Of a DNA stretch of 35,219 nt, positions 1,665-22,146 are shown one piece after another. Made by a program: the position numbers and the translations under genes. Under the pieces are notes generated by a model that saw only the letters and a program-made list of their open reading frames with translations, did not search any database and was not told the DNA's origin. Position 1 is the first letter of the stretch. Every line of letters begins with the position of its first letter. The DNA is from a virus (Duplodnaviria > Heunggongvirae > Uroviricota > Caudoviricetes): IMG/VR virus record IMGVR_UViG_2548876867_000017, positions 1 to 35,219 of that record, one strand, 5' to 3'.

Positions 1665-3344
1665 ATGAAAACTAAACTGTATTCGTATATTCGCTTCTCA
1701 TCTATGCGTCAGAATGATGGTTCGAGTTATGAACGGCAAATCAGGATGGCGAGAGAGGTTGCGGCAAAGTATGACCTTGAACTGGTAAATGATTATCAGG
1801 ATCTGGGTGTATCTGCGTTTAAGGGTGCTAACTCTAAAACAGGGGCGCTATCTCGTTTCCTTGATGCAATTGGTAGATCCGTTCCTGTTGGTAGCTGGCT
1901 ATTCATTGAAAACTTGGACCGTTTATCCCGTGCCGATATTGTCAGTGCGCAGGAGTTATTCCTTTCAATAATCCGTAGGGGGATAACCATTGTTACTGGC
2001 ATGGATAACAAGATCTACTCGCTGGATACTGTTACCGCTAACCCGATGGACCTGATGTTCTCCATCCTTTTATTCATCCGTGGTAATGAGGAAAGCCAGA
2101 CTAAGCGCAATCGTACTAACTCAAGCGCACTGATTAAGATTAAAGCCCATCAAGAAAATCCCCAGAATCCGGCAGTGGCAATCGAGGAAGTTGGAAAGAA
2201 TATGTGGTGGACTGATACCACTTCCGGTTATGTGCTGCCTCATCCGGTGTACTTCCCTGTTGTTCAGGAGATTGTGGAATTGCGGAAGAATGGACGTTCA
2301 ACCGCCGAAATACTGGATCACCTTAACGAGACTTATACACCGCCACCAGCGGTTAGCAACAAGAAGCATTCAAAATGGTCACGGGCAATGGTTGAAAGGT
2401 TGTTCCATACCCGCGCTTTGATTGGTATCAAGGAAGTCTCTGTAGATGGTGTTAATTATGAGTTAAAGGATTATTACCCTCGTGTTATTGATGATGCTAC
2501 GTTCTATCACCTTAAGAAAAATATTGGTGCTAGAGCATGGAACTTTGGAGACAAGGAAGAAGTTAAACCGATCCCCCTGCTTAGTGGTATTGGCCTATTG
2601 AAATGTGATCATTGCGGTTGCGCTATGGTTAAAGTGAAGGGAACGAACAAACGTTCTGACCAGTATCGTTATACATGTGATGCGACCCGTTCACGTAGAC
2701 TTGATTGTGAGCATCCAAACTGGAGTTTTCGAGGCGACCAATTAGAGAAAGCTGTATTGCAATTGCTGGCTGATAAAATCTGGATTGCTGAGGACAAGGC
2801 TAATCCGGTTCCGGCGTTGAAAGTACAGGTTGATGAAATATCACGCAAGATTGATAACCTGATTGCCCTTTCTGCTATGACAGGAGCAACGAAGGAGTTA
2901 GCCGATCAGATTACTACCCTCAATAGCGAGCGTGAAACACTCTACAATCAGATCAAGATGGCAGAAGAGGAAATGTATTCTGTGGACTCTCAAGGCTGGG
3001 AGAAGCTCGCAGAATTTGATTTAGAAGATGTTTATAACGAGGAACGACTAAAGGTCCGGTTTAAGATTAAGCAAGCTCTAAAGCGGATCGGGTGTAGCAG
3101 GATTGACAGAAACAAAAACTTGTTTGTACTGGAATACATCGATGGAAAAACCCAGAGAGTTGTAATAGAAAATTCAAGAGGAACGAGGAAAGGCCGGATC
3201 TTCATTGATTTGAAAACTATCAATGATAGGCAGATTCTGGAGAGCAACGGGCTTGTTCTGCATCCATGTTTAGACATGCTGACAGATAAGAACTGGAAAC
3301 CAGAAGAGGAAATACCAGGTCCATTACAGGAATTTGGAATTTAA
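1665..3344 (+). CDS. large serine recombinase (integrase/resolvase family)
   Basis: N-terminal catalytic motif YSYIRFSSMRQ with conserved Ser, DRLSR motif, Cys-rich zinc-ribbon segment (CDHCGC..CDATRSRRLDCEH), C-terminal coiled coil; start moved from TTG 1650 to ATG 1665. Confidence 0.85.
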   Translation: MKTKLYSYIRFSSMRQNDGSSYERQIRMAREVAAKYDLELVNDYQDLGVSAFKGANSKTGALSRFLDAIGRSVPVGSWLFIENLDRLSRADIVSAQELFLSIIRRGITIVTGMDNKIYSLDTVTANPMDLMFSILLFIRGNEESQTKRNRTNSSALIKIKAHQENPQNPAVAIEEVGKNMWWTDTTSGYVLPHPVYFPVVQEIVELRKNGRSTAEILDHLNETYTPPPAVSNKKHSKWSRAMVERLFHTRALIGIKEVSVDGVNYELKDYYPRVIDDATFYHLKKNIGARAWNFGDKEEVKPIPLLSGIGLLKCDHCGCAMVKVKGTNKRSDQYRYTCDATRSRRLDCEHPNWSFRGDQLEKAVLQLLADKIWIAEDKANPVPALKVQVDEISRKIDNLIALSAMTGATKELADQITTLNSERETLYNQIKMAEEEMYSVDSQGWEKLAEFDLEDVYNEERLKVRFKIKQALKRIGCSRIDRNKNLFVLEYIDGKTQRVVIENSRGTRKGRIFIDLKTINDRQILESNGLVLHPCLDMLTDKNWKPEEEIPGPLQEFGI

Positions 3345-3417: not shown

Positions 3418-4416
3418 TTAAAGAGCCTCTAAAGGGCTTAAATCGAGTTCTAAGTCTTCCGGTGTTAAATCAGCTAACGGTGCATTCATCCACTGCGATA
3501 AATCTCGTTCTATGTCTTCATCACTAATGTAGTTGTTCAGATTGATTGCGTTGGTATCATCAAAATACATTGGCTTAGATGGGTTGGTGTGGATGTATTC
3601 ATTGATGAATGATTTAACATCTTTCAGCTTGCTAATCGGTAGCGTTTCTGTGAATCCGCTATTCATTACCTTACGTGGGATTTTCTTGCCCTGAATATTC
3701 TTTTTAATCCCCATTTCTAAATCACCAGCTTTCCATCCAATGTTAAACAAATGTGAGCATTCAAAGGTGATTTTCTCGCTGGTGTGCTTCTGGTGTTCTC
3801 TTACCCGTTGCATCGGATCTTTGCGAGTGGTAATTCCATATTTGAAAAACTTCTCGCCAACACGAATTAGATAAAAGTGCATAGGGCGCTGTGCAAACTT
3901 GTTTCTGATAACCTGTTTTCTACCATTCTGAATTGATTTAAGTACACCCCTAACCAAAGGGCATGTTAACCCGCCTTGTCTGCGGTTATTGTGTAAATCA
4001 CCTTTCTTGTGAATCTTTCCGTGGCACTTACAACGAAGAATTAGTTTAGTGTCAACACCCTGATAAGGTTCAGCCAGACCTAACACATCCCACCCTATCG
4101 GCTTGTAGAACTTGCGAGCGTTTTCTAAGTGTTCTTCTTCGGTAAATCTAAACTTCTTCTTAGGCGGTGATACTCTATCTTTGCCAGTAAACTGACCAGT
4201 TAGAACATGACTAATACATGGCGTTTTAACCTTTCCGTTAACTTCTATGCAAACTTTGGTGTTCTGGAATGGTTTCTTTACAGGAAGCACAAAACCACTG
4301 TATAACCACCCATGCACTTGACAAACTTTAATGATTCTGGTTTCATATTCGACCGGAGGGGTCGCACGTTTGCTTTTTGCGGTAAATTCGATATCCTTTG
4401 CTAAAGTAGTATTCAT
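3418..4416 (-). CDS. putative homing endonuclease-like protein with GIY-YIG-related (T5orf172-like) motif
   Basis: Internal segment HFYLIRVGEKFFKYGITTRKDPMQRVREH resembles the T5orf172/GIY-YIG-like signature; Cys/His cluster CKCHGKIHKKGDLH; RBS GAGGA upstream. Confidence 0.45.
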   Translation of the reverse strand: MNTTLAKDIEFTAKSKRATPPVEYETRIIKVCQVHGWLYSGFVLPVKKPFQNTKVCIEVNGKVKTPCISHVLTGQFTGKDRVSPPKKKFRFTEEEHLENARKFYKPIGWDVLGLAEPYQGVDTKLILRCKCHGKIHKKGDLHNNRRQGGLTCPLVRGVLKSIQNGRKQVIRNKFAQRPMHFYLIRVGEKFFKYGITTRKDPMQRVREHQKHTSEKITFECSHLFNIGWKAGDLEMGIKKNIQGKKIPRKVMNSGFTETLPISKLKDVKSFINEYIHTNPSKPMYFDDTNAINLNNYISDEDIERDLSQWMNAPLADLTPEDLELDLSPLEAL

Positions 4417-11046: not shown

Positions 11047-11817
11047 TTATTTCTTGAAGTCTTCGTACATTCTACGAAGGTTGTATTTTGGATGGCCTAA
11101 GCTAACCATGATTTGGCTCAATTTAACTGCGCCAGGTTTGCCGTTTTCAATCCACACACGACGGATTTCATCGTAATGCTGCCAACAGCCTTGACCTTTA
11201 GCAATGCGTATAGAATGTGTATATTTCTTGGTAGAGCTTTCTGGTCGCTTACGCCCTAGATGTGCTTTTCTAATCTTTTCGCGTGTTTCTTCTGATACAG
11301 GTTTACCATAACGGGGGTTATTTTCTCCACGAGAAGCAGCGGATAATTTAGCTAATATTTCTGGGTTGGTTATTTTCTTCCCTTTCATTGCACTAGGTTT
11401 ACCATAGCGATGGTTCTTTTCACCCATTCGAGATGCCGACATTTTAGCTCTAGATTCCGGTGTATGTTTTCTTCCGTAAAAAGGATGATTTTCACCACCA
11501 TCAAAACCACCGACACCACCAGGAGCAATATTAAGACATACACCACGCCCCCATTTTTCGCGTGCTGCCTCCACTAACAGAATTTCACATTCAAACGCTT
11601 CCTCGGCAGTATCAAACAATTTTGAGCGAACAACTTCAAATTCATATATCGGGGTTTCTGATTCTTTATTTTTACGCTTCATCATTTTAATAACTTTACC
11701 CGACCCCACATATCCATCATCTAGATTTGTAGTTGTTCTTTTTCCGACGTAATGATAGATTTTACCAGAGCGATTAGATTTAATAGTGGTGTGATAAACG
11801 TAATGGAATTTTTGCAT
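11047..11817 (-). CDS. GIY-YIG homing endonuclease with NUMOD3-type repeats
   Basis: N-terminal YVYH..GKIYHYVGK GIY-YIG-like motif; repeated NHPFYGRKHTPESRAKMS and NPRYGKPVSEETREKIRKAH modules typical of Seg/I-TevI-type endonucleases. Confidence 0.75.
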   Translation of the reverse strand: MQKFHYVYHTTIKSNRSGKIYHYVGKRTTTNLDDGYVGSGKVIKMMKRKNKESETPIYEFEVVRSKLFDTAEEAFECEILLVEAAREKWGRGVCLNIAPGGVGGFDGGENHPFYGRKHTPESRAKMSASRMGEKNHRYGKPSAMKGKKITNPEILAKLSAASRGENNPRYGKPVSEETREKIRKAHLGRKRPESSTKKYTHSIRIAKGQGCWQHYDEIRRVWIENGKPGAVKLSQIMVSLGHPKYNLRRMYEDFKK

Positions 11818-11891: not shown

Positions 11892-12545
11892 TTACTTTTT
11901 AGACGAGTGCCAGCGGCTTTCGCTATTCCACTTCCCGGCACGAGAGAAGAATAGATCGTTCTCGTTTCCGGCATAAGATCGGTGGATACCATCGGAGGCA
12001 TGACTACGAGCGTTTTTATCTAGAACTTCCCAGATACTATTAAGCTGAAATTCTGATTCGTTTTTACACTCATCATCTTCATGTTCGATGTTAATCCCGA
12101 TGGAATCGACTACCCCACGGAAAACAGGGTAAGTGGTTTCAACCTTGCCCGTGTTAGGGTTCAGGAACACCATTTCGATTTTCACATCTGATTTATCGAA
12201 TTGCTTATTACGAATCAGGGTAATGTATTCTTCGCGAACGTTAGAAACGGTTACGTTAATCCCGTTGTTGTTGATCTCCTTCTCTTCGGTATTCGATGAG
12301 ATTTGAAGAAAATCACCCGTTGCAAGATACGTAAATCCGTTATAGTCCAAATCGAAATACCCATCTGTAAGCCGTAGAACGTCCCCTGACGCGGTTACTA
12401 CTTCGATAATGTGAAACATCGATCCAGTGGAGAAAAGCTGCGGTAGAGTCAATCTAGACACATTCTGACCTGTCTGGTCGTTGTATACCTCGATGAAGTC
12501 CAGATTAGTGCATAGTTTGCTGAATGATTCCTGAATAGTTGCCAT
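11892..12545 (-). CDS. minor tail protein
   Basis: 217 aa; start overlaps upstream stop (TAATG); located between tape measure and tip genes. Confidence 0.5.
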   Translation of the reverse strand: MATIQESFSKLCTNLDFIEVYNDQTGQNVSRLTLPQLFSTGSMFHIIEVVTASGDVLRLTDGYFDLDYNGFTYLATGDFLQISSNTEEKEINNNGINVTVSNVREEYITLIRNKQFDKSDVKIEMVFLNPNTGKVETTYPVFRGVVDSIGINIEHEDDECKNESEFQLNSIWEVLDKNARSHASDGIHRSYAGNENDLFFSRAGKWNSESRWHSSKK

Positions 12546-13155: not shown

Positions 13156-15585
13156 TTACATCTTACGACGCTGAACGTCTTCTATCGCCTGAGCAACAAA
13201 CTTAGCGTGACGTTTGATAGCATCCATGACCATCTTGTCTGAGCTATTAACGTTGCCGTTAATGTTCAAAGGCGCATTAACTTCAATCGGCTGAGAGTTA
13301 CCACCGCCTGATTTTTGAGCCGCAAGGAAGTCTTTCAAATCACCGTTAGTACGCTGATCAACTACTCGTTCACCCTTATCAAGCAACCATGTACCCTCAC
13401 GAGGGATATTATCGATACCATCATGAGCCATACCGCTAACGTTAGTAGACTTGATGTTTGCGATGTTCCCCATGTTCTGAGAAACAGCCAATGCAGCAGC
13501 AGCGATTTTTTGACCTGTGGTTACGTTGGTCGGATCGTTCCATGCATCGGTAGCAGCCGTCCACATGTTCACCGTCGCTTGTCCGATAGAGAATGCTTTA
13601 TGAGCATTGAAAGCCATCTGCATAGCTTTAGTGTTTTCCTGCCCGAAGAGAGTCATTGCAGCAGCAAAACCGCCGTACATATCATCAGCTATTGACTGGC
13701 GAGCATCAGCATATTTCTTCTCAATTGCAGCCATTCGTTTTTGATGGTTTTCATTGAGTTTTTCTAATTCTTCCATCCGTTTAGCCGGATCGGTGATCCC
13801 ATCAATCTTGAGTTTATCGGTCTTATAATCTTGTTCCGCTTCCGATTTCTCTTTATCGATTGCATTAAATTTAGCAAACGGATTATTTGAGTCTTGATAA
13901 TCATAACCACTAGTTAATTGATTGGTTTTATAACCATCCATTCCCTGTAAAGAATTTTCAATCTGAGAATAGTTTTGCTCGGTATCGTTCACACGACGCA
14001 TATATTCTTCGTAGGAGATAGCTTTACCATCAAGTAACCGTTTATGGCTTTCTAGCTCGTTGTCCCTGATTTGTTGCAATTGTGTTAAAGCATTCAGAGC
14101 ATCAATCGGATCAGCACCCAACATCATTTTATAAACGTTTTCAGTATTCTGATCGATTAGCGCCTGGCGTTTCGCGGCTGCGTCTTCCTGAGAGATTAAG
14201 CCCAGAGCTAACGCGTCGTTCACATCTTTTAAGCTGTTTTGCAACTGGCTATTTTGAGAAGTGATAGACGCTGCAACTTGCCCTTGCAATTTAACATCAA
14301 GTGCATTCAGTCGCTTGATTGCATCCTCGCGTGCTTTCTGTGCTTTTTCTGCGGCTTCCTTAGCCTTTTTAGCTGCCTCTTCCGCTTTCTTTTTGGCTTC
14401 TTCCTCGGCTTTCTTCTCGTTGCCAGACTTACCCAATGAAGCTGGTCGAGTTGGTGTAGTCGGGATAGTCAAATCACGGTTAGGATCTGCCTTGCGGGTT
14501 AGATGTTCCCCGTTATCGACAACAATCAGAGAGCCATTTTTCTTATAAGAATCACCAAAACGTTTCTTAAATCCTTCAACATCAAAGCCAGCAGTACGAG
14601 GATCAACACCAGCACCACGGATCGCGGCCTTTTCCCAATCTGCCAGATTATTCCAACGCTTTTCTTTATTGTACTTGTCAATAATCTTTTGAGCGTCTTT
14701 ATGGTTGGCGTTAAGAATACCGCCAGTTGCGGTCTTGCCTTCTTTATTCAGTCGGTCTAATGCCCTGAATAGAGAACTCTTTTCCCAATCAATATTAAAC
14801 CATTCAAATAACCAGTTTAAGCTATCAACCAAAGGACCAGTAATGGTCATGCCGACACCTTTCAGGTTATTTTCCAGCTTATTGATATTTTGAGAAAATT
14901 TATCATATTTTTTAGCGTTTTCTTCGGTGACGTTAACAGATTGATTCTGAATAGCGATCATCGCCTCTTGAGCACTATTATATTTCTCAAGCTGGCTGGT
15001 CATATGGCTTGAATCACTGGCTAAAGATTCCATCATGAACTTGATTTCAGCCATTGATTTTCCGGCTTTCTTCATGTCATAGAACACTTGGATCGCCGCT
15101 TTCATACCACCTTGCGGATCGGTCATGAAGTGAGCATAGTTTTCTAACTTAAGGCCAACCGATTCTAAATCATCGGCAATACCACCACCGTTAGCCCATG
15201 CATCACCCATCTTGTCTAAGGTGTCTTTGTTGATATCACCAAATTTTTCAACTGTTAAGCCAGTGCCAGAAAATTCCTTTTCCAGTCTTTGAAGGGATTC
15301 AATCGATAGTCCGGTCGCCTTAGATACTTCTGAATACTGTTTAACGTATTCCGCGCCAGCTTTAGCGGCTGCAAAAACTGCGGTCGCAACTAAGCCGATA
15401 CCACCAGCAGCCAAACCAGCAGAGCCAGCGATCCCACGAAGAGATCCAGTCAAACCAGACAAACCACCGCCAAAATCGATATTACTTGCCTTTTCAGACA
15501 AACTATCTAGAAGGTTAGCGGCTTCATTGGTACTTCTCCTTAGACCTTTATTATCCCCTTCTATTGTTACTATATGTTTTGTCAT
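13156..15585 (-). CDS. tail tape measure protein
   Basis: 809 aa, long alpha-helical/coiled-coil regions, Lys/Glu/Ala-rich segment, Gly-rich N-terminal segment; follows G/T chaperone pair; RBS AAGGGG. Confidence 0.85.
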   Translation of the reverse strand: MTKHIVTIEGDNKGLRRSTNEAANLLDSLSEKASNIDFGGGLSGLTGSLRGIAGSAGLAAGGIGLVATAVFAAAKAGAEYVKQYSEVSKATGLSIESLQRLEKEFSGTGLTVEKFGDINKDTLDKMGDAWANGGGIADDLESVGLKLENYAHFMTDPQGGMKAAIQVFYDMKKAGKSMAEIKFMMESLASDSSHMTSQLEKYNSAQEAMIAIQNQSVNVTEENAKKYDKFSQNINKLENNLKGVGMTITGPLVDSLNWLFEWFNIDWEKSSLFRALDRLNKEGKTATGGILNANHKDAQKIIDKYNKEKRWNNLADWEKAAIRGAGVDPRTAGFDVEGFKKRFGDSYKKNGSLIVVDNGEHLTRKADPNRDLTIPTTPTRPASLGKSGNEKKAEEEAKKKAEEAAKKAKEAAEKAQKAREDAIKRLNALDVKLQGQVAASITSQNSQLQNSLKDVNDALALGLISQEDAAAKRQALIDQNTENVYKMMLGADPIDALNALTQLQQIRDNELESHKRLLDGKAISYEEYMRRVNDTEQNYSQIENSLQGMDGYKTNQLTSGYDYQDSNNPFAKFNAIDKEKSEAEQDYKTDKLKIDGITDPAKRMEELEKLNENHQKRMAAIEKKYADARQSIADDMYGGFAAAMTLFGQENTKAMQMAFNAHKAFSIGQATVNMWTAATDAWNDPTNVTTGQKIAAAALAVSQNMGNIANIKSTNVSGMAHDGIDNIPREGTWLLDKGERVVDQRTNGDLKDFLAAQKSGGGNSQPIEVNAPLNINGNVNSSDKMVMDAIKRHAKFVAQAIEDVQRRKM

Positions 15586-15596
15586 AAATTACCCCT

Positions 15597-15938
15597 TTAA
15601 CCGCTTCTGAGTTTCTCAAGCAAAGATGGATCAAACATGTTCAGCATTGCCGCTTTACGTTCTTCTTCTTTCTTGCGTGCAATTTCTTCCAGTTCTTCTT
15701 TAGTTTTAAAGAGTTTTTCTTCTCTAATTAATTGGAATTGGCTAGGCTTGAGTTTGCGTGCAGTTTCGCGTGTCATTCCTTGCGACGTCATATACATGGA
15801 ATATTGCAACATCGCATTCTGCATATCATGAAACGCGGGGCTTTGTGGTTCTAAGTAGGTGTCGAAAATGTATAACTTCCAAAACAGAGTGATTGGCATA
15901 TTATCCATTTCATCTTTACTAAGCCCCGATCTCATCAT
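15597..15938 (-). CDS. tail assembly chaperone T segment (probably expressed as G-T fusion by -1 frameshift)
   Basis: In -1 frame relative to upstream chaperone ORF; frame is open from 15983; no convincing RBS before its own ATG. Confidence 0.55.
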   Translation of the reverse strand: MMRSGLSKDEMDNMPITLFWKLYIFDTYLEPQSPAFHDMQNAMLQYSMYMTSQGMTRETARKLKPSQFQLIREEKLFKTKEELEEIARKKEEERKAAMLNMFDPSLLEKLRSG

Positions 15939-15967
15939 TTGCCGGAAATAGAAATTCAGAAGCGGGT

Positions 15968-16276
15968 TTACTTTACCTCGTTTTCAATTACCGCCGCATC
16001 TTGCATCAATGACGCTTGAGCAACCAAACCGATTAATTCACTTCGGACGTTAGTATACAGTGCCTTAACTTGTTCAATAGATTCAAATACTGGCTTACCA
16101 TCTTCATCTTCAATACAACGAAGAATCGAACGTTCATCACGGTCTTCTTTATCGGTATTGAAAACATGTTCATTAAATTCTTTTACTGACATAGGGCGAG
16201 CATAGAACGTAAATCCACCGATGGTTACAGATTCGCGTTTCGGAGAGAGTGCGGCTAACATTTCATTAATATTCAT
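15968..16276 (-). CDS. tail assembly chaperone (gpG-like)
   Basis: 102 aa acidic protein between tail tube and tape measure genes; RBS AAGAGGAAA. Confidence 0.65.
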   Translation of the reverse strand: MNINEMLAALSPKRESVTIGGFTFYARPMSVKEFNEHVFNTDKEDRDERSILRCIEDEDGKPVFESIEQVKALYTNVRSELIGLVAQASLMQDAAVIENEVK

Positions 16277-16330: not shown

Positions 16331-16350
16331 AGCCACCCCGAAGGATGGCT
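16331..16350 (-). terminator. intrinsic terminator after tail tube gene
   Basis: Hairpin with UUCG loop on the minus-strand transcript followed by a run of six U, 8 nt after the 16359 stop. Confidence 0.6.
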
Positions 16351-16358
16351 AGAGAATA

Positions 16359-16829
16359 TTAGACTTTCTGGAAAACAGCTTGTTTAACCGGAGCACCATC
16401 TACTACAAAGGTGAAGGTACGGCCTACTACAGCATCCTCACCACCAGTCATGGTAGTTTTAGACAGGAAGCCGTTATAAGCGATATGTACACCAGATTTT
16501 TTCGTAGCGTCGATGTAGTAAGCAATTTTAAGCTGTACGCGCTTACCGTCTTCGGTTGCTTTAATCAGTTTTTCGTGTACTTCGTTACCCGGCATGTAGT
16601 TGATCGAAAGTTCGATATCCGGTACAGACATACGACCAACCAGCTTACGGTTATACGGACCACCGAAGTTAGGAACATCGACAGTAGAACGTTCTACACC
16701 AGTTTCCGGGAAAGCCGCACATTCTGGAATTTCCAGATAGGTTTCAGCATCAAGGTCTTTATTGCTTACGTCTTCTTGCAGAAACAGACCAACGAGGCCA
16801 CCAGAAAAAATATCAAATTTAGTAGTCAT
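16359..16829 (-). CDS. major tail tube protein (lambda gpV N-domain-like)
   Basis: 156 aa; segment LSINYMPGNE..KRVQLKIAYY resembles the gpV tube-domain pattern; strong codon bias; directly upstream of G/T chaperones. Confidence 0.65.
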   Translation of the reverse strand: MTTKFDIFSGGLVGLFLQEDVSNKDLDAETYLEIPECAAFPETGVERSTVDVPNFGGPYNRKLVGRMSVPDIELSINYMPGNEVHEKLIKATEDGKRVQLKIAYYIDATKKSGVHIAYNGFLSKTTMTGGEDAVVGRTFTFVVDGAPVKQAVFQKV

Positions 16830-16883: not shown

Positions 16884-17186
16884 TTAGCGGTTGCTCAAAC
16901 GTCTATAACGAAGATGAGCGATCCCTCGATTTGTGCTAACTGTAATTACTGCCCCTTGCGGTGCAATACAAGAATGAATCTGTCCCCAATCATGACCCTT
17001 ATGGCTTCCAGAAACACAAAAACCATGAATAAACAATTCAGAGTCACCACCGCCACCACCGGAAGAATGAGCACAGAATGAAATAGTCCCGAAAGCGTCG
17101 GCTGTCCAACCGTTAGGAATATCAAACCATCCTTGATTTGCTTTACCCGCCCTATTCCCCAAAGCGCCATCTACCCAAAATGCCAT
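16884..17186 (-). CDS. glycine-rich small protein, paralog 3 of a tandem triplet
   Basis: 100 aa; shares WFDIPNGW motif and Gly-rich core with the two upstream ORFs; RBS AGGAG; start overlaps upstream stop. Confidence 0.55.
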   Translation of the reverse strand: MAFWVDGALGNRAGKANQGWFDIPNGWTADAFGTISFCAHSSGGGGGDSELFIHGFCVSGSHKGHDWGQIHSCIAPQGAVITVSTNRGIAHLRYRRLSNR

Positions 17187-17491
17187 TAGTGCATTCTCCT
17201 GAATTTGAAATAATGCAAACTACCTTTACCCAATGTAAAGCTAACGGTAGCACCAGCGCCAACTAAAGAACTAGCACCCCAACTCCCAGCATCACCAGCA
17301 TGATGGCCTGATTCAATCAATCCATTTACAGCCAATTCAGAATCAAGATCACCAGCACCGTTAATGGCTTCCATATGAGCAAAGACAATTCCGCATGAGT
17401 CAGTAACCCAACCGTTTGGGATATCAAAATATCCACCATTAGCCCAAATACTAATAGCATTAGACATTCTTTGATTTATCCATCCAGCCAT
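17186..17491 (-). CDS. glycine-rich small protein, paralog 2
   Basis: 101 aa; YFDIPNGW motif, Gly-rich, C-terminal YFKF; RBS GGAG. Confidence 0.55.
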   Translation of the reverse strand: MAGWINQRMSNAISIWANGGYFDIPNGWVTDSCGIVFAHMEAINGAGDLDSELAVNGLIESGHHAGDAGSWGASSLVGAGATVSFTLGKGSLHYFKFRRMH

Positions 17492-17493
17492 AA

Positions 17494-17790
17494 TTAAAAC
17501 TCCATGAATTTAAAATATTCAATACCACCATCACCGCCGTGTCCACAGGTGACAGTACAGCCAGCAGGAACAAAGGCATTTATAGTAGATCCCCAATTAT
17601 TCCCACCACGACGACGAGCAACGGTCAAACCATCTACGTTAATCACACCATCAGCCCATCCACCGCCAGCATTATGACGCATGACAGCGACACCAGCGCG
17701 AGCAGTACCATAGCCGTTAGGAATATCAAATACATGCCATTTTAAAGCATCGATTTTAGTATTAATTTCACTACTTACCCAATATCCCAT
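17494..17790 (-). CDS. glycine-rich small protein, paralog 1
   Basis: 98 aa; VFDIPNGY motif, Gly-rich, C-terminal YFKF; RBS AAGGA. Confidence 0.55.
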   Translation of the reverse strand: MGYWVSSEINTKIDALKWHVFDIPNGYGTARAGVAVMRHNAGGGWADGVINVDGLTVARRRGGNNWGSTINAFVPAGCTVTCGHGGDGGIEYFKFMEF

Positions 17791-21312: not shown

Positions 21313-22146
21313 TCAGTATTCCCCGAAATCGATCCGGTCATGGATAGAAACGGCTTCAATCTCGGCTGGTGTCGGTTTTTCTTCCGTGGAATACACTTTC
21401 ACCCATCCAGAATTACCGTCTTTCTGGACTGTGCGAACTCGTAAACGTGGTGCGCCGGAAGCGGTGCAAGTTAATTGCCATCCACCATCTTCATTAGGTT
21501 GAACGTGAATTAGTGAAGTATCAGCACTAAATGGGTTAGATGCGCTCGATCCCTGATAAGTTACGAAACGGTTTCCGGCTAATGCTTCGCTATCAATCGG
21601 ACCCGTGAATGGATTTACACCAGCACCCAAACCAAAATCACCTTGACGTAAGATCCGGCCTTCGGTAGCAATACCGCGATCTAGAATCCCGCCATCAGGT
21701 TCTAATTTAAACTCGATTGTAGTAACTTTGTTATCACCGGATTTTGTTTTATGTGACGAGACATAAGCGTCAAAAATGACGTAGTAACCTGTGTTAGCAG
21801 CACTATAGCCAGAGTTCACAACATAGAACATACGAAAGCGTAAAGGAGTTTTATCATTCACCGCTTTCATCAACATGTCTTGATGTTCGTCATCCAGAAC
21901 ACGGTTTACTACTAACGTAGTTGATTCAAGTTTACGATAGCCAGCAAGTTTACCCGTAGCGTCCTGATCATACTCTTCTAACGTCTGGATCTCTGTGGAT
22001 TCGGTTAGCGTAGGGAATGCTGCGACGTTCTCGATAGGACTAAATGCAGGATCGAAAAAGTCCGGCTGGTTATCCACCATAGTAGACACGGAGACTTCAA
22101 CATGCGACCCCGTGAAAATGTCTAAGTTATCTTGTGTAATATTCAT
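21313..22146 (-). CDS. structural protein with fiber-like KPTPAEI motif
   Basis: 277 aa; C-terminal EEKPTPAEIEAVS resembles GDKPTPAEIGAYS in the tail fiber; RBS AAGGGGT. Confidence 0.5.
   Translation of the reverse strand: MNITQDNLDIFTGSHVEVSVSTMVDNQPDFFDPAFSPIENVAAFPTLTESTEIQTLEEYDQDATGKLAGYRKLESTTLVVNRVLDDEHQDMLMKAVNDKTPLRFRMFYVVNSGYSAANTGYYVIFDAYVSSHKTKSGDNKVTTIEFKLEPDGGILDRGIATEGRILRQGDFGLGAGVNPFTGPIDSEALAGNRFVTYQGSSASNPFSADTSLIHVQPNEDGGWQLTCTASGAPRLRVRTVQKDGNSGWVKVYSTEEKPTPAEIEAVSIHDRIDFGEY

What the first reader, a model, noticed from the sequence alone, without database searches (positions are those of the whole stretch)
15938..15986. Candidate programmed -1 frameshift joining the two tail assembly chaperone ORFs
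The 15597..15938 ORF is in the -1 frame relative to the chaperone 15968..16276, and the frame is open from 15983, overlapping the last four codons of the upstream gene. It has no convincing SD before its own ATG. The last two codons of the upstream ORF form G-GTA-AAG (minus strand 15977..15971), where an A-site AAG to AAA slip would give GGT-AAA and continue into the T frame, as in lambda G/GT. The heptamer is not canonical X-XXY-YYZ, so efficiency is uncertain.
Basis: inference. Interest (0 to 1): 0.45.

Follow-up and report, generated by a model that had tools for sequence, protein, structure and literature searches.

The report
Tail chaperone G/GT frameshift, non-canonical site
Two small tail-assembly chaperone genes of an E. 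coli prophage are almost certainly joined by a lambda-style -1 ribosomal frameshift, at an unusual slip site (GTA AAG followed directly by the stop codon) that genome annotation pipelines miss; it is a new example of a well-known mechanism.

Summary
On the minus strand a 102-codon tail assembly chaperone gene (16276..15968) is followed by a T-like ORF in the -1 frame. That frame is open from 15983, and G_GTA_AAG (15977..15971) sits directly before the stop TAA.

Comparison with about 40 related prophages (E. coli, Salmonella, Providencia, Edwardsiella) supports the frameshift reading:
- The 30 nt between the G stop and the first T-frame ATG evolve as coding sequence in the T frame. Synonymous:nonsynonymous codon changes are 781:223 there, against 70:779 and 110:722 in the other two frames.
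- That ATG has no Shine-Dalgarno sequence in any of the seven members tested.
- The only sequence shared in the 16-nt overlap is GTA AAG plus the stop.
- More distant relatives carry canonical heptamers at or within two codons of this position: T_TTA_AAG, aligned exactly, and A_AAA_AAG, within two codons.
- T-family members hit Pfam Phage_tail_T (best E = 1.4e-16).

No downstream RNA structure or conserved upstream SD-like element was found. The likely mechanism is a single tRNA-Lys slip from AAG to AAA, possibly helped by the adjacent stop codon, at low efficiency. The fusion has not been shown experimentally. RefSeq annotates the two ORFs as separate hypothetical proteins. Verdict: a new member of a known kind, of modest interest.

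The parts
15968..16276 (-). G-like tail assembly chaperone gene (102 aa; stop TAA at 15970..15968)
   Evidence: ORF. phrog_344 'tail assembly chaperone' E = 2.9e-8. PF16459 Phage_TAC_13 E = 1.6e-4, below the curated cut-off. Across the family, 6 of 11 members hit PF16459 and 2 distant members hit PF06222 at 3.3e-29. Strong SD, AAGAGGAAACAAGAATG, -6.0 kcal/mol.
15971..15977 (-). Proposed shift site G_GTA_AAG. The functional core is A_AAG at 15974..15971, where tRNA-Lys slips from AAG to AAA.
   Evidence: Read. GTAAAG is invariant in all 24 unique family sequences. It is the only element shared in the overlap between the window and L115, L116 and L121. It aligns with T_TTA_AAG of phage DCP80.
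15968..15970 (-). G stop codon TAA directly 3' of the slip codon; a possible 'shifty stop' stimulator
   Evidence: The stop directly follows AAG in 23 of 24 unique family sequences. This includes L021, where a 3-nt insertion gives AAG TAG TAA. In 13 of 26 distant homologous loci with a canonical heptamer, the heptamer is also directly followed by the stop.
15968..15983 (-). 16-nt overlap of the G frame and the open -1 (T) frame; the shift must happen here
   Evidence: The same 16-nt overlap is present in nearly all family members.
15939..15971 (-). T-frame codons VNPLLNFYFRQ upstream of the first ATG; translated only if ribosomes enter from G
   Evidence: Synonymous:nonsynonymous codon changes are 781:223 in the T frame, against 70:779 and 110:722 in the other two frames. 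Minimum substitutions by T-frame codon position are 3/4/10. The peptide GKVNP(L/F)LxFY(F/Y)RQ is conserved in E. coli, Salmonella, Providencia and Edwardsiella.
15597..15938 (-). T-like segment from its first ATG to the stop (113 aa). It is proposed to be made as the C-terminal part of a 226-aa GT fusion.
   Evidence: PF06223 Phage_tail_T E = 3.4e-4 for the window protein. 8 of 13 family members hit it, best 1.4e-16. No SD upstream.
13156..15585 (-). Tape measure protein gene (809 aa) immediately downstream
   Evidence: phrog_13674 E = 1.3e-66.
16359..16829 (-). Major tail (tube) protein gene immediately upstream
   Evidence: phrog_158 E = 1.6e-19. RefSeq calls the homologue 'phage tail tube protein'.

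Best explanation
This is the G/GT tail-assembly-chaperone pair of a lambda-like siphovirus tail module in an E. coli prophage.

Most ribosomes translate G (102 aa) and terminate at TAA 15970..15968. A minority shift to the -1 frame at GUA_AAG (15976..15971). There the single E. coli tRNA-Lys (anticodon mnm5s2UUU) un-pairs from AAG and re-pairs with the overlapping AAA. The next codon read is GUA (Val), and translation continues through VNPLLNFYFRQMM... to give a GT fusion of about 226 aa.

By analogy with lambda, the G part would bind the tape measure protein and the T part would recruit the major tail protein, with GT needed in small amounts relative to G.

The site is a hexanucleotide/tetranucleotide type (NNA_AAG), not a full X_XXY_YYZ heptamer. 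No RNA structure or conserved SD-like stimulator was found. The stop codon in the A site, which is slow to decode, is the most likely aid: P-site slippage while the A site is empty, then capture by Val-tRNA.

Shown here: anatomy, homology, and conservation and coding selection in the T frame upstream of any start codon. Inferred: the exact tRNA event, the role of the stop codon, and the efficiency.
For: 1. Synteny and homology. Gene order is major tail protein, G, T, tape measure. G hits TAC families. The T family hits Pfam Phage_tail_T, the lambda gpT family, in 8 of 13 members, best 1.4e-16.

2. Frame relation. T is in the -1 frame in all 31 relatives where a G/T pair was resolved, out of 32 loci examined, and in 10 further E. 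coli, Salmonella, Providencia and Edwardsiella loci.

3. Translation upstream of the ATG. In the 30 nt between the G stop and the first T-frame ATG, codon changes are 781 synonymous to 223 nonsynonymous in the T frame, against 70:779 and 110:722 in the other frames. Third positions carry 10 of 17 minimum substitutions. No ATG, GTG or TTG is conserved in the T frame upstream. The codon at 15959..15957 is CTG, TTG, TTA or CTA in different members.

4. No SD at the T ATG in 7 diverged members (-2.2 to +1.9 kcal/mol). G scores -6.0 to -8.6 in all 7. The tape measure start scores -6.0 to -9.1 in the 5 members where it was correctly located.

5. Site mapping. The overlap is 16 nt. Across diverged members only GTA AAG TAA is shared (window GAG, L121 GCG, L115 TCG, L116 GAA before it).

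6. Distant homologues carry canonical heptamers at or within two codons of the same place. DCP80 has T_TTA_AAG, aligned codon for codon. Buttiauxella, Atlantibacter and others have A_AAA_AAG, giving a KKV junction against GKV here.

7. L021 has a 3-nt insertion (one extra Val) just after the site. It keeps both the adjacent stop and the T frame.

8. Literature. A_AAG is the most shift-prone tetramer in E. coli (PMC4066793). NNA_AAG hexamers are used by IS1222 and occur in B. subtilis cdd. Lambda G/GT needs a ratio of about 30:1 (PMC5009743).
Against: - There is no protein-level evidence.
- The P-site codon GUA cannot re-pair well with GGU, or with AGU in Providencia.
- In reporter assays, bare Z_ZZN tetramers without a stimulator were barely above background (0.147% against 0.112%; PMC4066793). 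No downstream structure is predicted here (z-scores +1.2 and +1.7 against shuffles; consensus fold -1.7 kcal/mol). Efficiency could therefore be well below lambda's few percent.
- The SD-like GAGG just upstream is not conserved. It is also too close for the spacing known to stimulate -1 shifts (my own knowledge of dnaX and prfB).
- The Edwardsiella tarda member has lost the adjacent stop and has a T-frame ATG overlapping the new G stop (TGATG). That is a layout typical of translational coupling.
- Conservation of GTAAAG is partly confounded by dual coding in the overlap.
Confidence: 0.82

Rival explanations
1. T is made only as a separate 113-aa protein from its own ATG (15938). Ribosomes would reinitiate there after terminating at the G stop 30 nt upstream (translational coupling), with no frameshift.
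For: Every family member has at least one ATG at this spot. In the E. tarda member a T-frame ATG overlaps the G stop as TGATG, a classic coupling layout. All public annotations call T as a separate ORF.
Against: The ATG has no SD in 7 diverged members. The 10 codons upstream of it are under purifying selection in the T frame, 781:223 synonymous:nonsynonymous. The position of the ATG is not fixed: the first Met is Ile in L115, and the second is Leu in L116 and L121. Annotated start sites vary, giving products of 62 to 123 aa. Homologous systems (Pfam Phage_tail_T, lambda) make T only as a GT fusion (PMC5009743).
Confidence: 0.08
2. The frameshift happens in the overlap but at a different site. 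The candidate is T_GAA_AAC (15986..15980), with tRNA-Asn slipping from AAC to AAA.
For: GAAAAC lies inside the shift window of this phage. It is invariant in the close relatives.
Against: It is absent from L115 (GAA GAA TCG), L116 (GAG CAA GAA) and L121 (GAA GAA GCG), which keep the same G/T layout. E. coli tRNA-Asn supports only double-slippage events (PMC5009743), and GAA to UGA re-pairing in the P site is poor. A shift there would have to be read through a rare CGA codon.
Confidence: 0.03
3. T-frame translation starts at a non-ATG codon upstream of 15938 (CTG at 15959..15957), perhaps using GAGG (15979..15976) as an SD.
For: The codon is CTG in the window, and TTG in L007-type members, L115 and L120.
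Against: It is TTA in Providencia and CTA in Salmonella, and neither is a start codon. GAGG is 16 nt upstream, which is too far, and it is not conserved. The codons upstream of this position (K V N P L) are still conserved as peptide.
Confidence: 0.03
4. The T-like ORF is a decaying remnant, or its conservation reflects a DNA or RNA element and not translation.
For: Pfam hits for the window's own proteins are below the curated cut-offs.
Against: Codon periodicity and purifying selection hold throughout T (substitutions 20/10/45 by codon position after the ATG). The ORF is intact in all 41 family sequences analysed. There is no RNA structure signal.
Confidence: 0.01

Closest known systems
Bacteriophage lambda G/GT tail assembly chaperone -1 frameshift (Levin, Hendrix and Casjens 1993; Xu, Hendrix and Duda 2004, 2013, 2014; as summarised in PMC5009743)
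   Same: Two small ORFs lie between the major tail protein and tape measure genes. The second is in the -1 frame, overlaps the 3' end of the first and lacks its own SD. The T domain is homologous to Pfam Phage_tail_T. The slip codon is AAG, read by tRNA-Lys. No RNA stimulator is found.
   Different: Lambda's site is G_GGA_AAG (from my own knowledge; the review lists G_GGA_AAG as highly shift-prone in E. coli). There the P-site tRNA-Gly can re-pair. Here the site is G_GTA_AAG, one base different, or A_GTA_AAG in Providencia, so only the tRNA-Lys half is slippery. The G stop codon follows immediately. G belongs to the Phage_TAC_13-like group, not to lambda's own Phage_TAC_1 family.
Hexanucleotide/tetranucleotide -1 frameshift sites NNA_AAG: IS1222 G_CGA_AAG and B. 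subtilis cdd A_CGA_AAG (PMC5009743; Licznar et al. 2003, cited there)
   Same: A single tRNA-Lys slips on A_AAG with a non-re-pairing 5' codon. According to the review, efficiency depends on the wobble properties of the tRNA that reads the 5' codon.
   Different: The 5' codon is GUA (tRNA-Val) and not CGA. No SD-like or structural stimulator was found here. The biological context is a phage tail chaperone, not a transposase.
dnaX-type A_AAA_AAG and A_AAA_AAC tail-chaperone slip sites in related prophages (Buttiauxella L035, Atlantibacter L033/L034, Gilliamella L041, Chromobacterium L039, and others)
   Same: The tape measure proteins are homologous. The slip site sits at or within two codons of the same point in the T-frame alignment (KKV against GKV). 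It is often directly followed by the G stop.
   Different: Those relatives keep the full heptamer. The window's family has lost the first, P-site half.

Membership tests
Lambda-like G/GT tail assembly chaperone with programmed -1 frameshift | Two adjacent small ORFs between the major tail protein gene and the tape measure gene | tested here: met
   Order on the minus strand is MTP 16829..16359, G 16276..15968, T 15938..15597, TMP 15585..13156.
Lambda-like G/GT tail assembly chaperone with programmed -1 frameshift | The second ORF is in the -1 frame, open across the 3' end of the first, and this is conserved in relatives | tested here: met
   The overlap is 16 nt. The -1 relation holds in all 31 relatives where a G/T pair was resolved (32 loci examined) and in 10 further loci.
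Lambda-like G/GT tail assembly chaperone with programmed -1 frameshift | A slippery sequence X_XXY_YYZ in the overlap, in the G frame | tested here: inconclusive
   There is no canonical heptamer. G_GTA_AAG holds only the A_AAG tetramer, which is a recognised minimal -1 site in E. coli (PMC4066793, PMC5009743). Canonical heptamers are present at the corresponding place in distant homologues.
Lambda-like G/GT tail assembly chaperone with programmed -1 frameshift | The first ORF is homologous to a tail assembly chaperone family | tested here: met
   phrog_344 E = 2.9e-8. PF16459 hits 6 of 11 family members, best 1e-5. The window's own score of 22.4 bits is below the cut-off of 28.8.
Lambda-like G/GT tail assembly chaperone with programmed -1 frameshift | The second ORF is homologous to gpT (Pfam PF06223 Phage_tail_T) | tested here: met
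   The window protein scores E = 3.4e-4 (21.4 bits, cut-off 25.9). 8 of 13 aligned family members hit it, best 1.4e-16.
Lambda-like G/GT tail assembly chaperone with programmed -1 frameshift | T-frame sequence upstream of any start codon is translated (evolves as coding sequence) | tested here: met
   Synonymous:nonsynonymous is 781:223 in the T frame, against 70:779 and 110:722 in the other frames.
Lambda-like G/GT tail assembly chaperone with programmed -1 frameshift | A GT fusion protein is produced at a low ratio to G and is required for tail assembly | not testable with these tools
   This needs proteomics, a reporter assay or genetics.
Stimulated -1 PRF (dnaX or IS3 type) | A downstream hairpin or pseudoknot, or an upstream SD-like element at 6-17 nt | tested here: not met
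   Folds are no more stable than shuffled sequence (z +1.21 and +1.68). The consensus structure is -1.7 kcal/mol with little covariation support: 2 of 11 predicted pairs show a compensatory change. GAGG lies 2 nt upstream and is not conserved.

The most novel reading that the evidence does not exclude
The invariant arrangement 'A_AAG immediately followed by the G stop codon' may define a stop-dependent class of -1 frameshift in tail chaperones. The same arrangement is seen with full heptamers in half of the distant homologues. In this class the peptidyl-tRNA-Lys would slip in the P site while the stop codon waits in the A site. The G:GT ratio would then be set by competition between release factor and Val-tRNA, not by an RNA structure. 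This would make tail assembly sensitive to host termination efficiency and to tRNA-Lys modification.
Probability: 0.3. Interest if true: 0.5.

Novelty: new member of a known kind. Interest (0 to 1): 0.3.

Why it matters
The practical value is for annotation. This prophage family occurs in about 1% of complete E. coli genomes (51 of 5426) and also in Salmonella, Providencia, Proteus and Edwardsiella. RefSeq lists G and T as two unrelated 'hypothetical proteins' with inconsistent T start sites, and none of the 68 T homologues in a 5.8-billion-protein collection is a fusion. Recognising the GT fusion corrects the gene model.

The site also shows that motif-based frameshift predictors that need XXXYYYZ-like patterns will miss sites reduced to NNA_AAG plus a stop.

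Mechanistically, it would be a natural case of a tail-chaperone frameshift relying on one slippery tRNA and an adjacent stop codon. It would be a convenient system for testing 'shifty stop' -1 frameshifting in E. coli. It does not change what is known about tail assembly.

Tried and rejected
- Nucleotide searches of the phage collection with the G/T region found nothing useful. tblastn with T found only phage DCP80.
- The search for homologous proteins with the full 226-aa fusion returned no hit at all. The T ORF alone returned 68 hits. I treat as uninformative, not as evidence against a fusion.
- I looked for a downstream stimulatory RNA structure with two single-sequence folds and one alignment fold and found none.
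- An upstream SD-like stimulator is rejected. GAGG at 15979..15976 is not conserved and is too close to the site.
- The alternative slip site GAA_AAC is rejected because it is not conserved.
- A non-ATG start at CTG 15959 is rejected because it is TTA or CTA in relatives.
- Transcriptional slippage is rejected because the A run is only 3 nt long.
- A PDB profile search with the T family gave only spurious hits to designed repeat proteins.
- A literature search for GGUAAAG or G_GUA_AAG as a reported frameshift site found nothing relevant. Licznar et al. 2003, which measured the NNA_AAG hexamers, is not held in the library, so I could not look up a value for GUA_AAG.
- Three encoding-contig look-ups found no record (one Edwardsiella, one Salmonella and one Proteus protein).

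Full report
**1. What is in the sequence**

On the minus strand the window carries a siphovirus-type tail module:
- major tail (tube) protein gene, 16829..16359 (phrog_158, E = 1.6e-19);
- a 102-codon ORF, 16276..15968;
- a 113-codon ORF, 15938..15597;
- an 809-codon tape measure gene, 15585..13156 (phrog_13674, E = 1.3e-66).

The first small ORF matches tail assembly chaperone families (phrog_344, E = 2.9e-8; PF16459, E = 1.6e-4, below cut-off). The second matches lambda's 'Minor tail protein T' (PF06223, E = 3.4e-4, below cut-off).

G ends ...ATT GAA AAC GAG GTA AAG TAA, with the stop at 15970..15968. The -1 frame reads TGA(15986..15984) AAA CGA GGT AAA GTA AAC CCG CTT CTG AAT TTC TAT TTC CGG CAA ATG(15938).

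**2. Where it comes from**

The region has no close match among deposited phages. It is a prophage found in 51 of 5426 complete E. coli genomes. It also occurs in 31 IMG/VR contigs of about 35 kb. T homologues occur in Salmonella, Providencia, Proteus and Edwardsiella.

RefSeq annotates G and T as separate 'hypothetical proteins'. Gene callers place the T start inconsistently, giving products of 62-123 aa. None of the 68 T homologues is a fusion-length protein.

**3. Evidence that the T frame is translated from upstream of its ATG**

I aligned 41 family sequences (24 unique) around the junction. In the 30 nt between the G stop and the first T-frame ATG, the minimum number of substitutions by T-frame codon position is 3/4/10. 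Summed over all pairs of unique sequences, codon changes are 781 synonymous to 223 nonsynonymous in the T frame. In the two other frames the counts are 70:779 and 110:722.

The peptide GKVNP(L/F)LxFY(F/Y)RQ is conserved from E. coli to Providencia and Edwardsiella, although the DNA differs at many third positions.

No start codon is conserved in this stretch. The one candidate (CTG in the window, TTG in some members) is TTA in Providencia and CTA in Salmonella.

The ATG itself has no Shine-Dalgarno sequence in any of seven diverged members (-2.2 to +1.9 kcal/mol against the anti-SD). The mean for random positions is -1.75. G scores -6.0 to -8.6 in all seven. The tape measure start scores -6.0 to -9.1 in the five members where my script located it correctly. 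The Met position is also not fixed (RQMM, RQML, RQIM).

One relative (L021) has a 3-nt insertion directly after the site: GAG GTA AAG TAG TAA ACC. It keeps both a stop right after AAG and the T frame.

Ribosomes must therefore enter the T frame from G, within the 16-nt overlap.

**4. Mapping the site**

In close relatives a 31-nt block, GTAATTGAAAACGAGGTAAAGTAAACCCGCT, is invariant. Because of the L021 gap, only the 19 columns 15991..15973 are scored, and that is the only invariant run of 18 or more columns in a 1.6-kb alignment.

The diverged members are more informative:
- L121/L122 (Salmonella): GAA GAA GCG GTA AAG TAA
- L115 (E. coli): GAA GAA TCG GTA AAG TAA
- L116 (Providencia): GAG CAA GAA GTA AAG TAA
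- L120: AAA GAG GTA AAG TAA

Only GTA AAG plus the stop is shared. The window's GAAAAC and its SD-like GAGG are not. Because Providencia has A_GTA_AAG, re-pairing of the P-site tRNA-Val (GUA to GGU or AGU) cannot be the conserved feature. The conserved slippery element is A_AAG.

**5. Distant homologues**

Loci found through tape-measure homology show what the site descends from. Phage DCP80 has a canonical T_TTA_AAG. Both tblastn and MAFFT align it codon for codon with the window's G_GTA_AAG (FK against GK). Buttiauxella, Atlantibacter, Gilliamella, Zophobihabitans and an IMG/VR contig have A_AAA_AAG. Their junction peptide KKV lies at or within two codons of the window's GKV.

Of 33 loci with a -1 G/T pair next to the tape measure gene, 26 have a canonical in-frame heptamer in the overlap. 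In 13 of those it is directly followed by the G stop, for example GAA AAA AAG TAA and GTA AAA AAC TAA.

The window's family thus keeps the A-site half of the heptamer and the adjacent stop, but has lost the P-site half. Eight of 13 T-family members hit PF06223, best E = 1.4e-16. G-family members hit PF16459 (6 of 11) or PF06222 (2 of 11, 3.3e-29). This settles homology with lambda-type G and T.

**6. Stimulators**

None was found. The 81 nt and 91 nt around and after the site fold no better than shuffled sequence (z = +1.21 and +1.68). The alignment fold gives -1.7 kcal/mol, and only 2 of its 11 predicted pairs show a compensatory change.

**7. Mechanism**

According to the Atkins et al. review (PMC5009743):
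- the minimal -1 site is a Z_ZZN tetramer;
- A_AAG is the classic case in E. coli, because its only tRNA-Lys pairs weakly with AAG;
- NNA_AAG hexamers operate in IS1222 and in B. subtilis cdd;
- their efficiency rises with the wobble capacity of the tRNA that reads the 5' codon.

Sharma et al. (PMC4066793) rank A_AAG first among tetramers: 5.6% with a pseudoknot, but only about 0.15% without a stimulator. They list G_GGA_AAG among the best heptamers.

My reading is a single tRNA-Lys slip from AAG to AAA. Because the stop is so consistently adjacent, I think it most likely occurs with peptidyl-tRNA-Lys in the P site and UAA unread in the A site, followed by decoding of GUA. The tRNA event and the role of the stop are inferences. 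The E. tarda member lacks the adjacent stop (AAG AAA ACC CGC TCT TGA) and has a T-frame ATG in a TGATG overlap. The stop is therefore not indispensable, or that phage uses coupling as well. Efficiency is probably low. That would fit a chaperone needed at roughly 1:30 in lambda (PMC5009743).

**8. Comparison and novelty**

It works like lambda G/GT, and it meets every membership criterion I could test except a canonical heptamer. The slip site resembles the IS1222/cdd hexanucleotide class. I found no paper that reports G_GUA_AAG as a frameshift site. This is a new, unannotated member of a very well-known kind, with a degenerate slip signal. Interest is modest: it is useful for annotation and as a natural test case for stop-adjacent -1 slippage, but it is not surprising to a specialist.

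**9. Confidence**

I put the probability that a GT fusion is made by a -1 shift within 15983..15971 at about 0.82. For the specific A_AAG tRNA-Lys event I put it at about 0.75, and for a stimulatory role of the stop at about 0.4.

Noticed in passing
window 16350..16331 (minus strand): A terminator-like hairpin with a T run (AGCCATCCTTCGGGGTGGCTTTTTTG) lies between the major tail protein gene and G. A similar hairpin sits at the same place in phage DCP80 (L001 about 3615..3640). It may lower expression of G, T and the tape measure protein relative to the tube protein.
   Followed up: partly
L119 1480..1505 (Edwardsiella tarda, PDDV01000006.1): In this family member the stop after AAG is replaced by AAA, so G runs four codons further (K T R S). 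A T-frame ATG overlaps the new stop as TGATG, and the T frame is open for 109 nt upstream. It may be a variant that uses translational coupling as well as, or instead of, the frameshift.
   Followed up: partly
L021 about 2605..2620 (IMGVR_UViG_2778260996_000020): A 3-nt insertion directly after the slip codon gives GAG GTA AAG TAG TAA ACC. It keeps a stop adjacent to AAG and adds one Val in the T frame.
   Followed up: partly
window 17790..16884 (minus strand): Three tandem ORFs of 98, 101 and 100 aa lie between the 1136-aa tail fibre gene and the tube protein gene. They share an FDIPNG(W/Y) motif by eye and look like paralogues. None hits a PHROG family. L115 and L121 have similar small ORFs at this position.
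   Followed up: no
window 11817..11047 (minus strand): A 256-aa ORF inside the tail module matches homing endonuclease families (phrog_314, E = 5.1e-32). It sits between the tail protein genes and the 1248-aa fibre gene.
   Followed up: no
window 22146..21313 (minus strand): A second protein, 277 aa, also matches the major tail protein family phrog_158 (E = 2.4e-10). It lies upstream of the 1136-aa tail fibre gene, so the module encodes two tube-protein-like products.
   Followed up: no
L001 (Escherichia phage DCP80, PQ671644.1, 10097..18342): This 141-kb record is classified as a T4-like Gaprivervirus. It nevertheless carries a siphovirus-type cluster of tube protein, G, T and tape measure genes homologous to the window, all annotated as hypothetical, with a canonical T_TTA_AAG slip site that is not annotated. 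The assembly may be chimeric or the record misclassified.
   Followed up: no
window 11903..11892 (minus strand): The 217-aa tail protein ORF (12545..11892) ends TCT AAA AAG TAA, another A_AAG directly before a stop. Its -1 frame stays open for about 21 codons, running through a terminator-like inverted repeat (AAAGCCCTCA...TGAGGGCTTT). This is probably coincidental.
   Followed up: partly
(tool behaviour): The homology search with the 226-aa fusion found 292 word-sharing candidates but none scoring E <= 0.001. The T part alone found 68 hits, some at 99% identity. The negative result should not be trusted.
   Followed up: no
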